Below, piece after piece: positions 2,834 through 13,314 of a DNA stretch of 13,314 bases. The first letter of the stretch is position 1; each line of letters begins with the position of its first letter. The position numbers and the translations under genes are program-made. Location of the stretch: the NCBI GenBank assembly GCA_964590575.1, contig CAZPWM010000087.1, forward strand, positions 1 through 13,314. Reading direction: 5' to 3'. The notes under the pieces are model-generated. The model had not been told where the DNA came from, did not search any database, and saw only the letters and a list, made by a program, of their open reading frames with translations. This DNA comes from an uncultured archaeon. Lineage in GTDB: Archaea; Asgardarchaeota; Thorarchaeia; Thorarchaeales; Thorarchaeaceae.

Positions 2834-3943
2834 ATGCCAGAAGCGACATTTGTGGTAAAGCTTGATGATTTTCAGGGGTTCATTGTCGAACAACGATACC
2901 CCGCAACACTGACACTCAATGAGAAGATTCTGAACCTTATCTTCTACGAACAGCAGAGAGAGAGTAAAGAAAATCTCAGTCTAGCAGAAATAGAAGGTTT
3001 GAGAATTGCAATCTTTAGTTCCCCACAATATCCAAAGTGGATGGTTTGCACTATTCTCGGAGCAGAAGAAGAGTTCGATAGTGTCACTGAAGGACTCTCT
3101 GGGTCAGGAAGACTCATTCTTGCACTGATGAGCGAAGATGCAGAATCAATAAATCTCGAAGAGATAGTCAAAGCAGGAAGTATTCTTGAGAAGACCAGCG
3201 AGGAACAGAAACTTGCTGAGATATTTCTTACTCCGTCTTCAGCACTCCTTCTCGAACGAATGCAATCCGAAGGAGTGGAGAAAGCCGCTAAGCTCTCAAT
3301 CTGGCTAAAGAATCAAGTTCAAGATGAAGTGGATCTTCGTGAAGCAATGGCACCTCTGATGAGTACAGGAGTTGTTGCTGTGGAACTAGTTGGAAAAACA
3401 GCAGAGATGGTATTTCTTGTGAAGGATATCTTTGGTTATCGTGCACCTCCTGTTGAATCAATTAAGCGAGCCTCTCAGACAGTACCAGGCATTGCTGGAA
3501 AATACAAGGAGTATGTAGCATCCTTTTTCTCTCCTCCACCCCCGAGTAAGGGGTACAATCCGACCATAATTGTCAATGATCCCAATTCGCCAATTCTCGA
3601 GGACAGAGAGAAAATTTCAGTCCTCCTTGCGGATAGTTTGAACTATATGGTACTCGACTCTTTACGAGCTGAACCACTTTCAGCATCAGAGATTTCATTG
3701 AAGACAGCCCTTCCGGAGCCTATTGTGGAGAAGGTGCTTTGGTCACTGGAATCTGAAAAGGTAGTTGTTCACTTTGAGGAAGAGGGACTCTGGGCTCTTC
3801 TAACGAACCCCAGAATTGAGTCATTCATCCCTGAATATATATTACCGGTGATAAGGAAAAAGGTAACAGAGAAAGAAATAACATCTCAAGTTGCACGGAG
3901 ACACCTTGAACTCTTGATTCAGAATTACGGTGAACCAGAATGA
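2834..3943 (+). CDS. Hypothetical protein: N-terminal uDENN/longin-like domain plus two predicted winged-helix domains
   Basis: 369-aa ORF. N-terminal FVVKLDDFQGFIVEQRYP follows the strand-(F/L)D-x3-G-strand-YP start of uDENN/NPR2-type longins. LLLERMQSEG..AAKLSIWL...LREAMAPLMSTGVVAV and MVLDSLRAEPLSASEISLKTALPEPIVEKVLWSLESEKVV are HTH/wHTH patterns. Its stop overlaps the next start (ATGA 3940-3943). Confidence 0.8.
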   Translation: MPEATFVVKLDDFQGFIVEQRYPATLTLNEKILNLIFYEQQRESKENLSLAEIEGLRIAIFSSPQYPKWMVCTILGAEEEFDSVTEGLSGSGRLILALMSEDAESINLEEIVKAGSILEKTSEEQKLAEIFLTPSSALLLERMQSEGVEKAAKLSIWLKNQVQDEVDLREAMAPLMSTGVVAVELVGKTAEMVFLVKDIFGYRAPPVESIKRASQTVPGIAGKYKEYVASFFSPPPPSKGYNPTIIVNDPNSPILEDREKISVLLADSLNYMVLDSLRAEPLSASEISLKTALPEPIVEKVLWSLESEKVVVHFEEEGLWALLTNPRIESFIPEYILPVIRKKVTEKEITSQVARRHLELLIQNYGEPE

Positions 3944-4791
3944 TCAGAAGCGTCTATGTGCTTGGTGAACAGGGGAATATGCTCTACTCCAAGGATTATG
4001 CCAAAAGTGAGTCCAAAGCAGACCTTATTGAGTTTCTAGTGAATCTTACAAACTTCTTGAGAACTGTAGATCTTGAAAATAAAACGGAGTTCATGAATGT
4101 AGCGGTTTCGCGTATCTTCTTCGCACAAAGGAGCATTTTCACTTTCATGTTTATTGCAGATAAGGCAGATGATGCTTCTCAAATAGAGGAGAAGATGGGG
4201 CAGCTCGTTGACTCTTTTATGCGAGATTATGCTAATCTAGCTGCTGCCAATCAGCCGCTGGATGGTTTTGACGAGAAAGTGGATGAGATTGCAGTCACAA
4301 TGGTCAAGGTAGCTATCTTAGGATTTGCTGGTGTGGGAAAAACTACAACACTTCATTTACTCCGAGGAGAAACTCTTCCACTAGTTCATGACCCCACGAT
4401 TGGTGTGTCAATCAAGAAGCTACCAGAGGAAGTAGAGAATGCAAATATCGTCCTTTGGGACCTGGCGGGGCAATCTCGGTTTAGCATACTTTGGGCGAAA
4501 ATGATAGCAAATGCCCAAGTTGTAATTATTGTCACTGACAGTACTCTGGAGAATGTTCTGAGGAGTAAGAAACTGGTGACACTTGTGAAGGATGAGGTTC
4601 CTGATGCGAAAGTGATTGGCATAGCTAACAAGCAGGATCTTCCCACAGCTTTGACGCCAGAAAGAGTGGGCCAGATATTAGGAATTCCAACCTATGAACT
4701 CGTAGCCATTGACATCTCATACAGAGATAGACTCATTTCTATTATTCGAAGAGCCATACTTGAAGGCAAAGCTGAAGCAAAAGCAGCCTAA
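3940..4791 (+). CDS. Longin-domain / Arf-like small GTPase fusion
   Basis: G1 GFAGVGKTT, G2 PTIG, G3 WDLAGQ, G4 ANKQD, degenerate G5 (LVA); the G domain starts at ~4300. PTIG, WDxxGQ, the switch-2 Trp (ILW) and ANKQDLP are Arf-family hallmarks. The first ~120 aa (MIRSVYVLGEQGNMLYSKDY...) show the longin pattern of sigma-adaptin/SRX/TRAPP-type domains. Confidence 0.92.
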   Translation: MIRSVYVLGEQGNMLYSKDYAKSESKADLIEFLVNLTNFLRTVDLENKTEFMNVAVSRIFFAQRSIFTFMFIADKADDASQIEEKMGQLVDSFMRDYANLAAANQPLDGFDEKVDEIAVTMVKVAILGFAGVGKTTTLHLLRGETLPLVHDPTIGVSIKKLPEEVENANIVLWDLAGQSRFSILWAKMIANAQVVIIVTDSTLENVLRSKKLVTLVKDEVPDAKVIGIANKQDLPTALTPERVGQILGIPTYELVAIDISYRDRLISIIRRAILEGKAEAKAA

Positions 4792-5554: not shown

Positions 5555-5634
5555 AACATCATCTAGCAAGTAACTAGACAGGTTTTTTGAGGCTAATGAG
5601 GACTGTGCAGAAAATGTAACCATTTGCAGAAGCA

Positions 5635-6549
5635 CTATTTTTTCTTCGTAGTTTTCTTGGGAGCTGCCTTCTCTTTTTCTTTTTTCGTTGCGGCTTTCTT
5701 AGGAACTGGTTTCTTTTCAGCTTCCTTCTTAGCAGCTTTCTTTGGAGCTGGCTTCTTTTCAGCTTCCTTCTTAGCAGCCTTCTTTGGAGCTGATTTCTCT
5801 TCAGCTTTCTTCGTTACAGCTTTCTTAGGAGCTTCCTTCGTCTCAGCTTCCTTTTTAGTGGCTTTTTTGGGAGTTGCTTTCTCATCAACTTTCTTCGTTG
5901 CAGCTTTCTTGGGAGCTTCCTTCTCGTCAGTTTTCTTCTTCGTAGCCTTCTTGGGAGCTGCTTTTTCTACAATCTTCTTTGCGGGCTTTTGCTTAGGAGC
6001 TGCCTTCTTCTTTGGTATTCGCTCCTCAATATCTTCGACTGGTTCGCGTTTAGGCACTACGATTTCCAACGGTTCTACGATGACCTCTGGTCTGAGATCC
6101 TTGCGTTCCTTCTTCTCGCCAGCTTCCCTTCGTTGTCGGGCAAGTTTGCTAGGCTTCACCACATCACTTGATGCTGCAGCAAGTGCAAGATCCATCTCCT
6201 CGGTGATTACAGGTTCCTTGGGAACGCTTGATGCTATCTCTTCAAGGGCATCAGCAACCATTATTGGAGCTCCACCTTCTCTCTTAGCTAATTCAGAGGG
6301 TGTAGTGTAAACTACAAAACCGCCTTCTCGTATGTAGGGGACAACAATCCCCTCAATCTCTTTCTCTCTCAGAATCTTACGGGCAACACTCATCCGAATA
6401 TTGAACCGATTGGCTAAATCATAGCATGTGATGGACTTTGCTTTCTTGAGATATTCATCGATTCCTGATTTAACATCAGGCTTGGGTATTGCATCTCTGA
6501 TGACTCTCTCGGTCTTTGTGGCTGACTTGCCCCACTTCTTACGGCTGAT
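5635..6549 (-). CDS. rps25e: Small-subunit ribosomal protein eS25 (S25e) with long Lys/Ala-rich C-terminal extension; probable non-canonical ATC start
   Basis: The frame of track ORF 5635..6393 stays open for 52 more codons: ISRKKWGKSATKTERVIRDAIPKPDVKSGIDEYLKKAKSITCYDLANRFNIRMSVARKILREKEIEGIVVPYIREGGFVVYT. This matches eS25 motifs (KKW.K; K.IT...L..R..I..S.AR..L.EL...G.I......IYT). SD AGGAGAG is 8 nt before ATC 6549. An in-frame TAA lies at 6574-6576, with no in-frame ATG/GTG/TTG between it and 6393. Confidence 0.85.
   Translation of the reverse strand: MSRKKWGKSATKTERVIRDAIPKPDVKSGIDEYLKKAKSITCYDLANRFNIRMSVARKILREKEIEGIVVPYIREGGFVVYTTPSELAKREGGAPIMVADALEEIASSVPKEPVITEEMDLALAAASSDVVKPSKLARQRREAGEKKERKDLRPEVIVEPLEIVVPKREPVEDIEERIPKKKAAPKQKPAKKIVEKAAPKKATKKKTDEKEAPKKAATKKVDEKATPKKATKKEAETKEAPKKAVTKKAEEKSAPKKAAKKEAEKKPAPKKAAKKEAEKKPVPKKAATKKEKEKAAPKKTTKKK
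5638..5967 (-). repeat. About 8 degenerate tandem copies of a 42-nt (14-aa) unit, consensus near EKxAPKKAxKKxxE, inside the eS25 gene
   Basis: EKAAPKKATKKKTD / EKEAPKKAATKKVD / EKATPKKATKKEAE / TKEAPKKAVTKKAE / EKSAPKKAAKKEAE / KKPAPKKAAKKEAE / KKPVPKKAATKKEK / EKAAPKKTTKKK. Confidence 0.9.
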
Positions 6550-10050: not shown

Positions 10051-11178
10051 TCAGTTACTAAAATTCCGAGCAATCTCTAAGTAAATATCGACGGATTGAT
10101 AGAGTTCATCCAGAGTGATGTACTCATCAGGTTGATGTGCTTGTTCTATCGACCCAGGCCCACAAATCACATTCAGAATTCCAACATCAGGTTGAAGGAC
10201 AGAGCAATCAGTTCCATAGGTTGCAGTACTAAGTGTTGGACTCTTTCCTGTCACTCGCTTTACTGCAGTTCTGGTAAGTGTGACGATTTCAGAATCGACC
10301 GGGGTTAATACAGCAGGTTTACCATAGATGTATTCCACTTGTACCCTATCTGAGAGTCCTGCTGACTCGAGTCTTGCATTCATTGCTTTAAGGAGTGCAT
10401 CTGGATCTTGACCCTTCACTATACGCATGTCGATCTGTGCCTCACAAGCATCTGGGACTATATTGACTTTCATTCCGCCTTCAATGACACCAATATTCAC
10501 TGTTGGATTTCCAAGCAGCTCATCCGCATCATAGGGGAATGGTTCTTCCGTTAGCAGACGAATCGCATCCATACATGCTTGAATAGCATTGATTCCTTCC
10601 TCGGGTCTGGATCCATGAGCTGACTTACCTTTAGCAACGACCTTTGACCAGAAAATCCCTTTTTCCCCAACGAGGACTTGCAGGCTTGTAGGTTCAGCAC
10701 ATACACCATATTTGATTCCGTCTAACTTGCCGCTTTTGGCTACTACTTCTGCTCCATTGCAGCCAGTTTCCTCATCAGAAGTTGCAAGAACAACAAGGGG
10801 TTTTGTGTGACGTTCCTCTGTGTAGAGAATCAGGGTTTCGGCAAGAGCTGCGACTGGACCTTTCATATCGCATGAACCTCTCCCATAAAGACGGCCATCA
10901 ACAATCTCTGAAGAGAAGGGGTCATGAGACCAACTTTCTGATTGACCAATGGGTACTGTGTCCAAGTGACCGTGCATCAAGATGTCACCATTTTGTCCTT
11001 CATGACTTGAGAATATTAGATTAGGGCGTTCCGGGAGACCGACTTGGGTGCATGCGATACTATGCGAATCCAAATGATCACGTAGGATTTTTGCGACTTC
11101 TCTTGTAATGCCTTTAGGATTCTCTGAGTTAGTTGCAACTAGTTCTTTCAACAAGGTTAGAACCCGAGACTTGTCCAT
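10051..11178 (-). CDS. M20 family metallo-amidohydrolase (ArgE/DapE-like deacylase)
   Basis: HGHLDTVP, GRGSCDMKG, SDEETG, AEPT, SAHGSRPEEG, GTD and AHQPDEY motifs. ATG 11178 has GGAG 9 nt upstream; the track start at 11208 is an alternative. Confidence 0.93.
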   Translation of the reverse strand: MDKSRVLTLLKELVATNSENPKGITREVAKILRDHLDSHSIACTQVGLPERPNLIFSSHEGQNGDILMHGHLDTVPIGQSESWSHDPFSSEIVDGRLYGRGSCDMKGPVAALAETLILYTEERHTKPLVVLATSDEETGCNGAEVVAKSGKLDGIKYGVCAEPTSLQVLVGEKGIFWSKVVAKGKSAHGSRPEEGINAIQACMDAIRLLTEEPFPYDADELLGNPTVNIGVIEGGMKVNIVPDACEAQIDMRIVKGQDPDALLKAMNARLESAGLSDRVQVEYIYGKPAVLTPVDSEIVTLTRTAVKRVTGKSPTLSTATYGTDCSVLQPDVGILNVICGPGSIEQAHQPDEYITLDELYQSVDIYLEIARNFSN

Positions 11179-11252
11179 GAAATACAACTCCTGCATCTCC
11201 CACTTCACAGCCCTGCTAAGAAGGTTCCTGCTGGCTCACCGGCCAAGGCGGA

Positions 11253-11261
11253 TTATTTATA
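11253..11261 (+). promoter_or_regulatory. TATA box for the box C/D sRNA
   Basis: TTATTTATA ends about 24 nt upstream of the predicted sRNA 5' stem at 11285. It may also serve the divergent M20 gene. Confidence 0.55.
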
Positions 11262-11284
11262 GGAAAACAATAGCGTATCATCAT

Positions 11285-11360
11285 GTGGCAATTCTATGAG
11301 GCAGTTACCCCTGGCTGAGCTTCGGCGATGACGAGCCAAGAGCAGGCTGAGATTTGCCAC
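11285..11360 (+). ncRNA. Archaeal box C/D 2'-O-methylation guide sRNA
   Basis: Terminal stem GTGGCAATTC (11285-11294) / GATTTGCCAC (11351-11360), 9 of 10 paired. Variant box C ATGAGGC 11296-11302; 12-nt guide AGTTACCCCTGG; D' CTGA 11315-11318; GC-TTCG-GC hairpin; C' ATGACGA 11328-11334; 12-nt guide GCCAAGAGCAGG; D CTGA 11347-11350. TATA upstream, T-run downstream. Confidence 0.85.
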
Positions 11361-11364
11361 CTCG

Positions 11365-11378
11365 TCTTTTTAAAAAGA
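11365..11378. terminator. Palindromic T/A tract, possible bidirectional terminator
   Basis: TCTTTTTAAAAAGA gives a T5 run on each strand between the + strand sRNA and the convergent - strand small ORF. Confidence 0.45.
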
Positions 11379-11459
11379 GCAATTGTCGGATTTAGGCTGA
11401 AACCCATAGATAGGCATTGGAGTGATAGTAGGAAACCCGTAGGCGTATCTTGAATCTGG

Positions 11460-11627
11460 TTATATGCCAGTTTTCAAAATGAGCCGATTCTTTTCAAGTG
11501 TGACTCCTAATTCTTGCCCATCATCATCGAACAGGGATACATCTTCCTCCTTGACGAAGACCTTGACAGTCTTCCTCAACTTGCGCGAAGGAATCTCACC
11601 CATGGAAATGATATAGGTTTCAGCCAT
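11460..11627 (-). CDS. Small hypothetical protein (55 aa), not in the ORF track
   Basis: MAETYIISMGEIPSRKLRKTVKVFVKEEDVSLFDDDGQELGVTLEKNRLILKTGI*; GGAG SD 9 nt before the ATG; protein-like composition; fills an otherwise empty gap. Confidence 0.7.
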   Translation of the reverse strand: MAETYIISMGEIPSRKLRKTVKVFVKEEDVSLFDDDGQELGVTLEKNRLILKTGI

Positions 11628-11934
11628 TGTTTAGTACTCCGACGGATGCGTGGTGGTGCGACAGTCTAAGAGGGATGCAAGACTTGAGTCTATGATATCA
11701 TTTAGAGTATATATAGGAGCATCCAACAAATCCAGCTTGTTCTAAAAGCCCGAGTACTCATTTTATGGCAGTTTCTCGAGAACCCAAAAAGAGACCCTAT
11801 GAAACAGGTGAAAATGTTAGTTCCGCAAGTACAGGGAGGAATTCTTCGCCTTAACAAATGGCCATTCATAAAAAGGGGCGAGTGTTGACCACATTTTGAA
11901 GAATGCTACACAAGCATGGAAATGATTAGCAAAT

Positions 11935-12171
11935 ATGGCGTTGTCAATGGAGTTATGGAAACGTTATATAATATTGAGCATGTTTAGTGCGACAATTATC
12001 TCAATTTTGACGATCTATCTCTATTTCTCATTTGGTATACTAGACATACTAGGAATGAAGCTTGTTACAGTGATGGTTTGTGTGTTTGTTATCTTCCTCT
12101 TCATCTTTCTAGCATCCTATGCTTGGACAAACAGGGATAGGCACCCCTTCAATGTGAGTTACTCAACCTAA
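11935..12171 (+). CDS. Small putative membrane protein (two TM helices)
   Basis: 78-aa ORF with two hydrophobic segments; its stop overlaps the stop of the convergent gene by 4 nt; AT-rich. Confidence 0.5.
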   Translation: MALSMELWKRYIILSMFSATIISILTIYLYFSFGILDILGMKLVTVMVCVFVIFLFIFLASYAWTNRDRHPFNVSYST

Positions 12172-13313
12172 GGATTGTAAGCAAAGGGATGCCTCGCAGA
12201 GTCCTTCCTCGCAATGATCTCATTAACACCTTGACGACCCTCTATGGCTCGCCGTAGTGCATGACGCACAGCTATGAAGTTGTTGATGTGCACCCTTGTT
12301 GTGTTGACCGCACTTGGATGTACAAAGACATTCACTGCAACGACTAGGTCTTGTACTAATTCTTCAGGAATGATTGCATCTGTGATGCTTCGTCGAATTG
12401 CATCAGATACTCCTTTCTGGGCAAATTCATACACCATCTTCTTATGGTGCTCCGAAGTGATAGTAACAGTCGGGGCAAAGACCGTTTTCAACTCAAGATC
12501 CTTGATTACATTCGACTGATGCGTGTCCTCTGTGACTTTTCCTGCATTCTCAAGAGCCACACTCATGGGACCATCGCGTATACCCATTATCAAGTCGACA
12601 TGTGCGACATCGTTGCCACCACCGAATAGTGCTTCGCCATGGAGTAAGGTCAGGTCCTTAATGACATCAGGGACCATTCCTACAGCCTTAGGATAGGTCT
12701 CACTTTCTATAGATCTATTACCCATCTTGAAAACGACTGGACCTCTTGGAATCATCTGAAGATCCTCAAGACAAATGCGTATCTCGTCATGCATATCGTA
12801 TCCAAGAGAATCAGCCTCCAGAAGCGGGGGTCTCGCGTGCCCAACGGGCACACCTATCATATTGAGCGCGGCTTTGACAGCAAGCCCGCCCCCACGATTA
12901 ACGAAAATACGGACTATCCTCTGAATACTTCGTTGCACAATCAAAGCTTCCTTCAAGTCACCACTAGCAAGAGCTGTTTGCATCTTGATATAACGATCAG
13001 GAAATACATTGGCACTGGCAAGAATTGCACCATCACAGCCAGTTGCGAGTGCAGGAAGTACTACTTCATCATGGCCAACTACCACTTGGAAATTCTCGGG
13101 ACGCCGGACTAAAATTGTGGTCAGATTCACAAGATCGCCACTTGAATCCTTCAATCCAACAATGCCATCGATATCTCTCAGTCCATCTATGAGTGTCCAA
13201 TGTAAAGGAACACCAGTAACTTGAGGGATATTGTAGACGAATATGGGAATGTCACTATTACTAGCTACTTTCTCGAAATGCTCGTAGATTTCCTTATCGG
13301 AAGGTTTCAAGAA
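12168..13313 (-). CDS. dapA: DapA/NAL-family class I aldolase fused to a C-terminal formaldehyde-activating enzyme (Fae) domain; 5' end outside the window
   Basis: The frame is open to the window edge. The aldolase part (~12760-13313) has VYNIP (catalytic Tyr), GLKDSSGD (Schiff-base Lys), GHDE, GCDGAILASANV and VKAALNMIG..VG.ARPPL. The C-terminal ~160 aa (~12168-12655), HGEALFGGGNDVAHVDLIMG...AQKGVSDAI...IIPEE...VFVHP...ALRRAIEG...ARHPF, follow Fae (GEAL.G.GNEVAHIDL.IG...AQ.GVA.AV...IIP...VFIH...HPF). Confidence 0.9.
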   Translation of the reverse strand, partial: FLKPSDKEIYEHFEKVASNSDIPIFVYNIPQVTGVPLHWTLIDGLRDIDGIVGLKDSSGDLVNLTTILVRRPENFQVVVGHDEVVLPALATGCDGAILASANVFPDRYIKMQTALASGDLKEALIVQRSIQRIVRIFVNRGGGLAVKAALNMIGVPVGHARPPLLEADSLGYDMHDEIRICLEDLQMIPRGPVVFKMGNRSIESETYPKAVGMVPDVIKDLTLLHGEALFGGGNDVAHVDLIMGIRDGPMSVALENAGKVTEDTHQSNVIKDLELKTVFAPTVTITSEHHKKMVYEFAQKGVSDAIRRSITDAIIPEELVQDLVVAVNVFVHPSAVNTTRVHINNFIAVRHALRRAIEGRQGVNEIIARKDSARHPFAYNP

Positions 13314-13314
13314 G

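What the first reader, a model, noticed from the sequence alone, without database searches (positions are those of the whole stretch)
12168..13313. DapA-family aldolase fused to formaldehyde-activating enzyme: a possible new formaldehyde-channelling route
Seen: one frame joins a Schiff-base aldolase barrel (YNIP, KDSS intact) through a ~35-aa linker to a near-complete Fae domain. The Fae part keeps the catalytic-His motif (VAHVDL) and terminal HPF, but has a shortened, divergent middle. Known: Fae condenses formaldehyde with tetrahydromethanopterin; the characterised Fae fusion is Fae-Hps of methanogens, whose partner releases or fixes formaldehyde by aldol chemistry; DapA/NAL enzymes use pyruvate plus an aldehyde. 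Inference: by analogy, this enzyme may cleave or form a pyruvate-formaldehyde adduct such as 4-hydroxy-2-oxobutanoate (from homoserine) and channel the C1 unit to or from the H4MPT Wood-Ljungdahl branch. That would link amino-acid catabolism to C1 metabolism. I do not recognise this fusion as characterised.
Basis: partly seen in the sequence, partly recalled or inferred. Interest (0 to 1): 0.82.

Follow-up and report, generated by a model that had tools for sequence, protein, structure and literature searches.

The report
Aldolase fused to formaldehyde-activating enzyme
This Asgard archaeal gene really does join a pyruvate-type aldolase to a formaldehyde-activating enzyme; it is mislabelled in databases as a lysine-pathway enzyme, usually works beside a sister gene, and its chemistry is still untested.

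Summary
Window 12168-13313 (minus strand) is a 5'-truncated ORF with a DHDPS-family barrel, a structured connector and a complete Fae domain. It is no assembly artefact. More than 110 full-length proteins of about 491 aa share the architecture. It occurs in 35 Thorarchaeota species genomes, about 44 Bathyarchaeia and other Asgard lineages.

It is not DapA, despite the public name. The aspartate-semialdehyde-binding Arg138 position is never Arg in 124 sequences. DapB and LysA were not found in 5 of 5 carrier genomes.

New here: in Thorarchaeota the gene ('A') directly follows a paralogous fusion ('B'), which is lost off this contig's end. A and B keep complementary halves of the conserved Fae motifs. 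A has Phe where DHDPS has the trans-acting Tyr107, and B keeps Tyr. This suggests an obligate A/B enzyme.

All 39 sampled Asgard genomes with a fusion-sized gene have Mch, and none of the 26 without Mch has one.

The proposed chemistry is pyruvate plus formaldehyde giving 4-hydroxy-2-oxobutanoate, with the C1 unit passed to H4MPT. It remains plausible but untested. No paper on the fusion was found.

The parts
12168..13313 (-). 5'-truncated gene for subunit 'A' of the DHDPS-like aldolase-Fae fusion. It holds 381 codons plus the stop at 12168-12170; about 110 N-terminal codons lie beyond the contig end.
   Evidence: It is 95% identical over all 381 aa to the full-length P0002 of 496 aa.
12807..13310 (-). 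C-terminal two thirds of a DHDPS/NAL-family class I aldolase TIM barrel.
   Evidence: Pfam PF00701, E 4e-35, and the same coordinates. Foldseek places the P0002 model on DHDPS structures with TMt 0.87-0.94.
13311..13313 (-). Phe codon at the position of DHDPS Tyr107, the residue that reaches into the neighbouring subunit's active site.
   Evidence: HMMER alignment to 2vc6 pairs 'spyf' with 'spyy'. The column is F in 32 of 32 Thor A copies and Y in 28 of 30 Thor B copies. The role of Tyr107 is recalled knowledge.
13218..13235 (-). YNIPQV motif. Tyr27 is the Tyr133 equivalent (13233-13235). Val32 is the Arg138 equivalent (13218-13220).
   Evidence: The Arg138 column is never Arg in 124 sequences.
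13149..13151 (-). Lys55, the predicted Schiff-base lysine (Lys161 equivalent) within KDSSG.
   Evidence: The column is K in 122 of 124 family members.
12639..12806 (-). Connector between the two Pfam matches. It comprises the last barrel helices plus a beta-hairpin at aa 189-209 (12687-12749).
   Evidence: In the AF2 model of P0002, strands 305-312 and 315-323 have pLDDT of about 90.
12183..12638 (-). Fae (formaldehyde-activating enzyme) domain. It has AHVDL at 12591-12605, VFVHP at 12315-12329 and ARHPF at 12183-12197.
   Evidence: PF08714, profile 2-158 of 159, E 4e-28. TIGR03126 scores 116.6 bits against a cut-off of 118.05. Match to 1Y5Y has E 2.7e-20.
10051..11208 (-). ArgE/DapE-family M20 deacylase. 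It is a recurrent downstream neighbour; a functional link is unproven.
   Evidence: TIGR01910 scores 231.1 bits against a cut-off of 217.6. Its ORF cluster is present in 26 of 36 Thor loci, the window included. A 30%-identical M20 gene lies near the single-copy fusion in another Asgard family.

Best explanation
The ORF is the 'A' subunit of a two-subunit enzyme of Thorarchaeota. It descends from a single-copy fusion of a DapA-derived class I (Schiff-base) 2-oxoacid aldolase with formaldehyde-activating enzyme.

Shown:
- The architecture, its conservation and its intact aldolase catalytic residues.
- The loss of the DapA-specific Arg138.
- The absence of the lysine DAP pathway from carrier genomes.
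- Strict co-occurrence with the H4MPT marker Mch in the sampled genomes.
- The tandem A/B arrangement, and the complementary retention of Fae motifs and of Tyr107 between A and B.

Inferred:
- A and B pair through the DHDPS-type tight-dimer interface, so that B's Tyr completes A's aldolase site.
- The two half-degenerate Fae domains together build one H4MPT/formaldehyde site.
- By analogy with Fae-Hps, the aldolase makes or cleaves a C-C bond to formaldehyde. The simplest case is 4-hydroxy-2-oxobutanoate giving pyruvate plus formaldehyde. The Fae part exchanges that C1 unit with H4MPT, most likely pulling cleavage forward by trapping formaldehyde as methylene-H4MPT.

My odds for each step:
- Not DapA: about 0.9.
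- A/B heteromer: about 0.7.
- Formaldehyde-coupled aldolase: about 0.5.
- 4-hydroxy-2-oxobutanoate specifically: about 0.3.
For: Architecture and spread:
- Searches show the domains and the fused relatives.
- In one search, 39 of 91 sampled Asgard genomes hold a fusion-sized Fae ORF.

Not DapA:
- The Arg138 equivalent is Arg in 0 of 124 sequences.
- DapB is over cut-off in 0 of 5 genomes and LysA in 0 of 5.
- The only other DHDPS-family gene in G000 is KdgD-like.

Catalytic residues: the Lys161, Tyr133 and Thr44/45 equivalents are kept in 122-124 of 124 sequences.

H4MPT link:
- Mch was found in 5 of 5 carrier genomes.
- All 39 sampled genomes with a fusion-sized ORF have Mch, and 0 of 26 genomes without Mch have one.
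- Single-copy fusions carry a canonical Fae domain of 201.8 bits.

Tandem paralogues: searches show them. Two Fae matches, where located adjacent on one contig, were found in 14 of 18 other same-genus genomes.

Complementation:
- 89 columns are conserved in canonical Fae plus single-copy fusions. Thor A alone keeps 33, Thor B alone keeps 16, both keep 7 and neither keeps 14, in alternating segments.
- The Tyr107 equivalent is F in 32 of 32 A copies and Y in 28 of 30 B copies.

Complex model for A+B: score 0.76, best of 3 controls 0.00. That mark was reached by 58 of 80 solved complexes and 2 of 110 mismatched pairs. The runs share at least 95% of contacts and the partner's pLDDT is at least 89. 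The interface is the DHDPS tight-dimer loops plus A's C-terminal tail. This pass may simply reflect likeness to solved DHDPS dimers.

Fold: the AF2 model has pTM 0.89 and a fixed inter-domain arrangement.
Against: - No substrate evidence of any kind exists. No aminotransferase, dehydratase or other gene pointing to 4-hydroxy-2-oxobutanoate is conserved beside the fusion.
- The Fae domain of Thor A falls just below the NCBIfam Fae equivalog cut-off (116.6 and 113 bits against 118.05). It has lost the mid-domain motifs, so it may not be a working Fae on its own.
- The complex model cannot tell A-B pairing from A-A or B-B pairing.
- 2 of 30 Thor B copies also have Phe at the Tyr107 position.
- That the two motif sets lie on opposite sides of an inter-subunit Fae site is recalled from the Fae structure paper. 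I could not read that paper, and the point was not checked on coordinates.
- Paralogue B is absent from this assembly, so for this genome its presence is inferred from relatives.
- The co-occurrence counts come from related genomes and are not independent.
Confidence: 0.45

Rival explanations
1. Two independent activities on one chain. The aldolase acts on an ordinary 2-keto-3-deoxy acid (KDG/KDPG-like, 4-hydroxy-2-oxoglutarate or similar) and releases an aldehyde other than formaldehyde. The Fae part is simply the cell's formaldehyde-activating enzyme, or an oligomerisation module, with no shared intermediate.
For: - DHDPS-family enzymes cover many substrates. The conserved G-H-D-E segment resembles the GxDE sugar-binding motif that I recall for sialic-acid lyases.
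- One single-copy fusion lies beside a glycerate kinase gene (DUF4147+MOFRL).
- In the Thorarchaeota family the fusions are the only Fae homologues found. No Fae-Hps-sized ORF was seen in the 18 sampled genomes.
- A stand-alone relative without Fae exists: P0138, 310 aa, with the same YNIPQVTG motif.
Against: - A fusion kept across Thorarchaeota, Bathyarchaeia and several other Asgard families points to functional coupling, as does a confidently fixed inter-domain geometry (pTM 0.89).
- Many genomes keep the fusion in addition to a canonical Fae-Hps, so it is not just 'the' Fae.
- The glycerate kinase neighbour was seen at G030. Homologous ORFs of similar size sit beside the fusion in G046 and G056 by clustering, but they were not annotated.
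Confidence: 0.3
2. The Fae-like domains have been repurposed. After duplication, the half-degenerate A and B domains bind something other than formaldehyde/H4MPT (another aldehyde or pterin), or act as a regulatory or structural cap on the aldolase.
For: - Thor A and B each lost many otherwise conserved Fae columns, and neither keeps 14 of the 89.
- Thor A scores under the Fae equivalog cut-off.
- Deeper metagenomic relatives have even more degenerate Fae parts and lack the C-terminal tail.
- Two relatives (P0128, P0132) even lack the Schiff-base Lys.
Against: - The losses are complementary rather than random.
- The His motif and HPF tail are kept in essentially all Thor A copies: the His column in 32 of 32 and the tail columns in about 97%.
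- The fusion occurs only in Mch-positive genomes among the 91 sampled.
- The single-copy ancestors have a canonical Fae.
Confidence: 0.15
3. It is what the databases call it: a true 4-hydroxy-tetrahydrodipicolinate synthase (DapA) that happens to carry a Fae domain.
For: - The full-length relative P0002 and paralogue B both pass the NCBIfam dapA equivalog cut-off (225.7 and 226.1 bits against 206.15).
- The best PDB sequence and fold matches are DHDPS.
- An ArgE/DapE-family deacylase is a frequent neighbour.
Against: - The Arg138 equivalent is Val or Cys, never Arg, in 124 sequences.
- The Tyr107 equivalent is Phe in all 32 Thor A copies.
- DapB and LysA are over cut-off in 0 of 5 carrier genomes, while the same searches ring in 11 of 14 control genomes.
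- Aspartate-semialdehyde dehydrogenase was found in only 1 of 4 Thor-genus genomes.
Confidence: 0.05

Closest known systems
Fae-Hps bifunctional enzyme of methanogens and many Asgard archaea (NF009833)
   Same: A Fae domain is fused to an aldolase whose reaction involves formaldehyde, in H4MPT-containing archaea. The logic is the same: free formaldehyde is handed to H4MPT.
   Different: - The partner here is a class I Schiff-base DHDPS-family barrel at the N-terminus, not an OMP-decarboxylase-fold hexulose-phosphate synthase at the C-terminus.
- NF009833 matches only over the Fae part, far below cut-off (85.1 bits against 274).
- Many genomes carry both enzymes.
- The Thor genus has no Hps over cut-off.
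DapA / DHDPS (4-hydroxy-tetrahydrodipicolinate synthase, TIGR00674; e.g. PDB 2vc6, 1dhp)
   Same: Closest sequence and fold relatives (E 8e-49; TMt up to 0.94). The GTTGE motif, the Tyr133 equivalent and the Schiff-base Lys are shared, and the tight-dimer loops are predicted to pair.
   Different: - No Arg138.
- Phe at Tyr107 in this paralogue.
- About 200 extra C-terminal residues: the hairpin plus Fae.
- No DapB or LysA in the genomes.
Stand-alone Fae of Methylobacterium extorquens (PDB 1Y5Y/1Y60)
   Same: Alignable end to end (E 2.7e-20). It shares the GEAL..G.GN.VAH.DL motif, VF.HP and the C-terminal HPF.
   Different: - The domain here is fused.
- The middle segment is shortened by 6 residues and has lost the conserved LEPNL..KP and R.A..(F/Y)GP.Q motifs, which the tandem partner B keeps.
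- That stand-alone Fae is a homopentamer is recalled, not tested here.
4-hydroxy-2-oxobutanoate aldolase step of the synthetic homoserine cycle (promiscuous E. coli RhmA)
   Same: The proposed chemistry is the same: pyruvate plus formaldehyde giving 4-hydroxy-2-oxobutanoate. It is described in the passages of PMC8879981 read.
   Different: [quoted passage not shown] That it is a class II metal enzyme unrelated to DHDPS is my recollection. The review-hydroxy-2-oxobutanoate a non-native metabolite. No link to H4MPT exists there. Activity of the present protein is untested.

Membership tests
DHDPS/NAL class I aldolase superfamily (PF00701) | Profile match over the gathering score and a TIM-barrel fold | tested here: met
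   The truncated window protein scores 121.3 bits against a cut-off of 22.1. Same-genus paralogue A (G001) scores 237.5 bits. Foldseek gives TMt 0.87-0.94 to DHDPS structures.
DHDPS/NAL class I aldolase superfamily (PF00701) | Schiff-base Lys, proton-relay Tyr133, and Thr44/Thr45 of GxxGE | tested here: met
   The window protein has K55 and Y27. GTTGE is seen in the 95%-identical P0002. These columns are conserved in 122-124 of 124 sequences.
DapA, 4-hydroxy-tetrahydrodipicolinate synthase (TIGR00674) | Equivalog HMM score over the cut-off | tested here: met
   P0002 scores 225.7 bits against a cut-off of 206.15. The truncated window protein scores 110.4 bits.
DapA, 4-hydroxy-tetrahydrodipicolinate synthase (TIGR00674) | Arg138, which binds the carboxylate of aspartate semialdehyde (role recalled) | tested here: not met
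   It is Val in the window protein. The column is Arg in 0 of 124 sequences.
DapA, 4-hydroxy-tetrahydrodipicolinate synthase (TIGR00674) | Tyr107 of the catalytic triad, supplied in trans (role recalled) | tested here: not met
   It is Phe in the window protein and in 32 of 32 Thor A copies.
DapA, 4-hydroxy-tetrahydrodipicolinate synthase (TIGR00674) | Pathway partners DapB and LysA present in the genome | tested here: not met
   DapB is over cut-off in 0 of 5 genomes and LysA in 0 of 5. The genomes are 91-97% complete, and the controls ring in 11 of 14.
Fae, formaldehyde-activating enzyme (PF08714 / TIGR03126) | Pfam profile match over the gathering score, full length | tested here: met
   98.8 bits against a cut-off of 27, covering profile positions 2-158 of 159.
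Fae, formaldehyde-activating enzyme (PF08714 / TIGR03126) | NCBIfam equivalog-domain cut-off | tested here: not met
   The window protein scores 116.6 bits and P0002 scores 113.0 bits, against a cut-off of 118.05. The miss is marginal.
Fae, formaldehyde-activating enzyme (PF08714 / TIGR03126) | The full set of family-conserved residues | tested here: not met
   89 columns are conserved in canonical Fae plus single-copy fusions. Thor A keeps 33 alone and 7 together with B, and lacks the mid-domain block that B keeps. The His motif and HPF tail are kept.
Fae, formaldehyde-activating enzyme (PF08714 / TIGR03126) | H4MPT-dependent C1 pathway present in the organism | tested here: met
   Mch in G000 scores 428.6 bits. 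All 39 fusion-bearing genomes sampled have Mch. Mtd, Mer and Ftr were not searched.
Fae, formaldehyde-activating enzyme (PF08714 / TIGR03126) | Catalysis of formaldehyde plus H4MPT to methylene-H4MPT | not testable with these tools
   This needs an enzyme assay.
Fae-Hps bifunctional enzyme (NF009833) | A hexulose-6-phosphate synthase domain fused to Fae | tested here: not met
   NF009833 matches only profile positions 4-161 of 392 (85.1 bits against a cut-off of 274). No Hps is over cut-off in 4 of 4 Thor-genus genomes.

The most novel reading that the evidence does not exclude
Asgard archaea and Bathyarchaeia possess a natural enzyme that moves a hydroxymethyl unit between methylene-H4MPT and the C3 carbon of pyruvate, reversibly forming 4-hydroxy-2-oxobutanoate. 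This would join the archaeal Wood-Ljungdahl methyl branch directly to C4 2-oxoacid and homoserine metabolism. It would be a natural counterpart of the engineered homoserine cycle.

In Thorarchaeota it would have evolved into an obligate A/B heteromer with one composite Fae site. There it could supply or consume homoserine-level C4 units in genomes where homoserine dehydrogenase was not found.
Probability: 0.2. Interest if true: 0.85.

Novelty: new variant of a known kind. Interest (0 to 1): 0.62.

Why it matters
Metabolic reconstructions count this gene family in two ways. Genome annotation names it 'DapA'. A Bathyarchaeia study scores 'fae' as a formaldehyde detoxification gene without mentioning any fusion (PMC10321748, passages read).

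The first label is very probably wrong. The second ignores that, in the 45 Bathyarchaeia and Baldrarchaeum loci fetched here and throughout the sampled Thorarchaeota family, the Fae domain sits on an aldolase chain.

If the two halves share formaldehyde, this would be a second natural Fae-aldolase coupling besides Fae-Hps. It would be a new entry or exit point of the H4MPT C1 pool in two of the most abundant sediment archaeal groups. It would also be a natural template for synthetic formaldehyde-assimilation pathways.

The A/B pair is also a clean candidate case of complementary degeneration after duplication. It appears in a trans-acting catalytic residue (Tyr107) and in the Fae motif sets. 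That these motif sets form an inter-subunit Fae site is recalled, not tested here.

Tried and rejected
PanB replacement. I considered that the enzyme might be a methylene-H4MPT-dependent ketopantoate hydroxymethyltransferase. Canonical PanB (PF02548) is present in 18 of 18 other same-genus genomes, so I rejected this. G000 itself shows no hit, which I attribute to its 91% completeness.

Replacement of Fae-Hps. Rejected as a general idea. 20 sampled Asgard genomes hold a single-copy fusion-sized ORF, and most of them also hold a Fae-Hps-sized ORF.

Operon clues.
- Neighbours in Thorarchaeota are CutA1, two large proteins with no Pfam match, a metallo-beta-lactamase and an M20 deacylase.
- Neighbours in Bathyarchaeia are TrmI and proteins with no Pfam match.
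- None of these gives a pathway.

Threonine route.
- ThrC is over cut-off in 18 of 21 genus genomes, though barely. ThrB is over cut-off in 0 of 21. Homoserine dehydrogenase was found in 0 of 4 and Asd in 1 of 4.
- The pattern is suggestive but too ambiguous to use.

Conserved neighbour 'X'.
- X lies beside the single-copy fusions and has no Pfam, NCBIfam or PDB sequence match.
- ESM Atlas points to U32-like clusters.
- Foldseek's best matches for its AF2 model (pLDDT 81) are class II aldolases, at only TM 0.41-0.58.
- X was not found in 5 of 5 Thorarchaeota genomes searched, but no positive control genome was included.
- I therefore did not use it to explain the window gene.

Other negatives and limits.
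- No tRNA or Rfam family was found in the window.
- The Fae structure paper (doi 10.1074/jbc.M412320200) is not held, so residue roles in Fae are recalled.
- One literature search returned only irrelevant papers.
- RNA evidence is one 228-base contig of an RNA library overlapping 13186-13314. This does not show transcription.
- Logan contigs are too fragmentary to bridge the whole gene.
- The FastTree of the aldolase domain was read without support values. I use it only for the statement that the fusions group apart from 10 DHDPS-like outgroups. Before building it I thinned the rows to every 4th Bathyarchaeia and every 3rd Thor sequence.
- L053 and L106 are the same contig of one genome, so 'Bald A/B, 2 each' is one genome counted twice.
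- Supplementary files of papers were closed and may hold gene tables that mention the fusion.
Full report
**What is there**

The window is a whole 13,314-base contig (C87) of a 3.4-Mb genome that is 91% complete. Its best protein matches are labelled Thorarchaeota or Promethearchaeota. An Arf-family small GTPase gene lies in the window, which fits an Asgard origin.

The finding's coordinates hold one frame on the minus strand, 13313 to 12171, with a stop at 12168-12170. It is open at the contig end, giving 381 residues.

Pfam finds two domains:
- A DHDPS-family barrel at aa 2-169 (profile 108-276 of 289, E 4e-35).
- A complete Fae domain at aa 226-377 (profile 2-158 of 159, E 4e-28).

**The fusion is real and widespread**

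The word-indexed protein search returned at least 110 full-length proteins of about 491 aa. They are 62-95% identical and each carries both Pfam domains. Most that have a name are called '4-hydroxy-tetrahydrodipicolinate synthase' from Thorarchaeota or Promethearchaeota MAGs. P0002 is 95% identical over all 381 residues and supplies the missing N-terminus, including GTTGE.

A scan of one genome per species kept 80 loci out of 576 related stretches:
- 35 labelled Thorarchaeota, Promethearchaeota or unclassified archaeon, at 72-89% identity.
- 44 Bathyarchaeia, at 42-46% identity.
- One Baldrarchaeum.

The exhaustive HMMER search found more distant fused forms at 29-42% identity.

I sampled 91 Asgard genomes of at least 85% completeness. 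A Fae match inside an ORF of 465 aa or more occurs in 39 of them:
- 17 of 18 genomes in the window's family.
- Tandem pairs in two other families.
- A single copy in 20 genomes of five further families.

I confirmed the DHDPS+Fae architecture by Pfam for G001 and G030. ORF clustering confirmed it for all 20 loci fetched.

Logan contigs from three DNA runs carry the same sequence at 95-99% or better. Some run on past the window's end.

AlphaFold2 on P0002 with a 36-row alignment gives pLDDT 90.3 and pTM 0.89. The inter-domain segment forms a beta-hairpin rather than a loose linker. Foldseek places the barrel on DHDPS structures at TMt 0.87-0.94.

**It is not DapA**

The full-length relative and its paralogue both pass the NCBIfam dapA equivalog cut-off, though narrowly (225.7 and 226.1 bits against 206.15). 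This explains the public name.

Four results argue against that name:
- In the HMMER alignment to DHDPS 2vc6, the 'YNIPgRs' arginine aligns with Val. This is Arg138 in E. coli numbering; its role in binding aspartate semialdehyde is recalled knowledge.
- In an alignment of 124 fused sequences that column is V, C, A, L, Y or T, and never R.
- DapB and LysA were not found over cut-off in any of five carrier genomes that are 91-97% complete. The same searches ring in 11 of 14 control genomes.
- The only other DHDPS-family gene in this genome is KdgD-like and also lacks the DapA signature.

The Schiff-base Lys, Tyr133 and Thr44/45 equivalents are kept in 122-124 of 124 sequences. The barrel therefore looks like a working class I 2-oxoacid aldolase with a different aldehyde partner.

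**A second, tandem fusion**

In 30 of the 35 Thorarchaeota-group loci, and in Baldrarchaeum, the 491-aa gene ('A') is immediately preceded by a paralogous fusion ('B') of about 466-477 aa with the same two domains. In L022 the two overlap by about 10 bases. B's Fae match covers only profile positions 13-135.

Fourteen of 18 other same-genus genomes have exactly two Fae matches. Where both could be located, they are adjacent on one contig.

In G000 only A is present. Its contig breaks inside A, so B is missing from the assembly rather than shown to be absent.

Bathyarchaeia and five other Asgard families have a single copy. Its Fae domain is much closer to canonical Fae (201.8 bits in G030, against about 100 bits for Thor A).

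**Complementary degeneration**

I compared four Asgard Fae-Hps Fae domains plus 45 single-copy fusions, and took the 89 columns conserved in at least 90% of them. Among these:
- Thor A alone keeps 33.
- Thor B alone keeps 16.
- Both keep 7.
- Neither keeps 14.
- The remaining 19 are intermediate.

The retention is segmental:
- A keeps GEAL.G..EVAH.DL, T..PTVT, NVFVHP...R..INN and the HPF tail.
- B keeps F...GHE.L..LEPNL..KP and MR.A....GP.Q.

In the barrel, the position of DHDPS Tyr107 is Phe in 32 of 32 Thor A copies. It is Tyr in 28 of 30 Thor B copies and in 44 of 44 Bathyarchaeia copies. From the DHDPS literature I recall that Tyr107 reaches into the partner subunit's active site.

The window protein begins exactly at that Phe.

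A complex prediction for A+B from one genome scored 0.76, with the best of three controls at 0.00:
- That mark was reached by 58 of 80 solved complexes and by 2 of 110 mismatched pairs.
- The runs agree in at least 95% of contacts, and the partner's pLDDT is at least 89.
- The interface uses residues 109-125, 141-144 and 271-279 of both chains, plus A's C-terminal tail.

This interface is the DHDPS tight-dimer interface. The pass may therefore reflect likeness to solved homodimers, and it cannot distinguish A-B from A-A.

Taken together, I read A and B as an obligate pair. B's Tyr completes A's aldolase site, and the two half-degenerate Fae domains may build one composite site. That the Fae site lies between subunits is recalled, because the structure paper is not held.

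**Link to H4MPT**

- Mch is present in G000 (428.6 bits) and in all five carriers tested.
- In the same 91-genome sample, all 39 genomes with a fusion-sized ORF have Mch. None of the 26 genomes without Mch has one. These genomes are related, so the counts are not independent.
- The Thor genus has no Hps over cut-off. The sampled Thor family has no Fae-Hps-sized ORF. The fusions are therefore its only Fae homologues.
- Many other Asgard genomes keep the fusion beside Fae-Hps. It is thus not a mere substitute.

**What it most likely does**

By the same logic that explains Fae-Hps, the shared intermediate of a Fae-aldolase fusion should be formaldehyde. For a pyruvate Schiff-base aldolase, the simplest matching reaction is 4-hydroxy-2-oxobutanoate giving pyruvate plus formaldehyde. 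The engineered homoserine cycle uses this reaction, catalysed there by the promiscuous RhmA (PMC8879981, passages read).

Trapping formaldehyde as methylene-H4MPT would pull the cleavage forward. The reverse direction is also conceivable: hydroxymethylation of pyruvate from the C1 pool.

None of this is shown. No conserved neighbour points to a substrate.

Homoserine dehydrogenase was not found in four Thor-genus genomes. ThrC-like genes are present and ThrB is absent. This pattern is intriguing but ambiguous.

I rejected a PanB-like role because PanB is present in 18 of 18 other same-genus genomes.

**Rivals**

- The two activities may be independent, with the aldolase acting on a larger 2-keto-3-deoxy acid.
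- The Fae-like domains may have been repurposed.
- The protein may be a true DapA.

The first rival remains serious. Supporting it, a stand-alone relative without Fae exists (P0138), and one single-copy fusion lies next to a glycerate kinase gene.

**Literature**

Six full-text searches found no paper on a DHDPS-Fae fusion. They combined Thorarchaeota or Bathyarchaeota, formaldehyde-activating enzyme or Fae, and dihydrodipicolinate or DapA.

I read only the matching passages of these papers:
- PMC10321748 and PMC6421429 count 'fae' in Bathyarchaeia as a formaldehyde-handling gene without noting a fusion.
- PMC5020050 and PMC11291895 do not mention it in the passages seen.

**Verdict**

The gene is a mis-annotated member of a conserved, uncharacterised aldolase-Fae family. 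In this lineage it is one half of a tandem pair with complementary losses.

I class it as a new variant of a known kind (Fae-aldolase fusions). Its biochemical role is open and directly testable.

Noticed in passing
L117:8737-9681 (-), L053:5622-6566 (+), L111:4837-6120 (+), L051:6501-7838 (-): A conserved gene with no Pfam, NCBIfam or PDB sequence match lies directly upstream of the single-copy or tandem fusion outside the Thor family. A 315-aa form occurs in 10 of the 20 Asgard loci fetched, and also in L053 (Baldrarchaeum). A 428-446-aa form occurs in another Asgard family and in 38 Bathyarchaeia loci, and these are 67% identical across the two phyla. The 315-aa form is 65-70% identical to Chloroflexi proteins. 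Its AF2 model (pLDDT 81) best matches class II aldolases at TM 0.41-0.58. It was not found in 5 Thorarchaeota genomes.
   Followed up: partly
G000:C167:1079-1972 (L083): The genome's only other DHDPS-family gene (297 aa). Its best match is KdgD (5-dehydro-4-deoxyglucarate dehydratase) at 151.5 bits, far below that model's cut-off of 373.95. It has 'YKKGP' in place of 'YNIP'.
   Followed up: partly
Thor-genus genomes G000, G001, G002, G004: Homoserine dehydrogenase (PF00742) was found in 0 of 4 genomes and archaeal Asd in 1 of 4. ThrB is over cut-off in 0 of 21 genus genomes, yet ThrC-like genes are over cut-off in 18 of 21. One ThrC-like gene is syntenic about 26 kb from the fusion pair in several genomes.
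   Followed up: partly
window 3940-4791 (+): An Arf/Roc/Ras-family small GTPase domain (aa 122-251) sits behind an N-terminal extension of about 120 aa with no Pfam match. It overlaps the stop of the preceding 369-aa ORF, which has no Pfam match.
   Followed up: no
window 11209-12167: About 960 bases between the fusion gene and the M20 deacylase gene have no long ORF, no tRNA and no Rfam match. A 78-aa hydrophobic ORF (11935-12171, +) overlaps the fusion gene's stop codon.
   Followed up: no
window 5635-6393 (-): A 252-aa protein whose C-terminal two thirds is a Lys/Ala/Glu/Pro-rich repeat (KKxAxKK-like), with no Pfam match. The opposite strand carries a mirror ORF (5624-6310) that is probably spurious.
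   Followed up: no
L104:657-2117 (+) in G030: A 487-aa ORF with a Cas12f1-like/TnpB TNB domain sits directly upstream of the single-copy fusion gene in G030. By the ORF map (L127) it lies between the fusion and its usual 315-aa neighbour. A glycerate kinase gene (DUF4147+MOFRL) lies downstream on the opposite strand.
   Followed up: no
L119:7993-8973 (-) and homologous ORFs in L115, L116, L117, L122: A CitG-family gene (PF01874) lies convergent to the fusion gene in one Asgard family, followed by an M20 peptidase. I recall that CitG homologues are linked to H4MPT biosynthesis in methylotrophs; this was not checked.
   Followed up: no
P0128 and P0132 (metagenomic relatives): Two distant fused relatives lack the Schiff-base lysine (LDATG and ADSSG in place of KDSSG). 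P0128 also has His in place of the Tyr133 equivalent. Their barrels are therefore probably inactive.
   Followed up: no
G081:C48:8432-8824: The paralogue B match in one same-family genome contains an in-frame TGA. This could be a sequencing error, a pseudogene or recoding; I did not look further.
   Followed up: no
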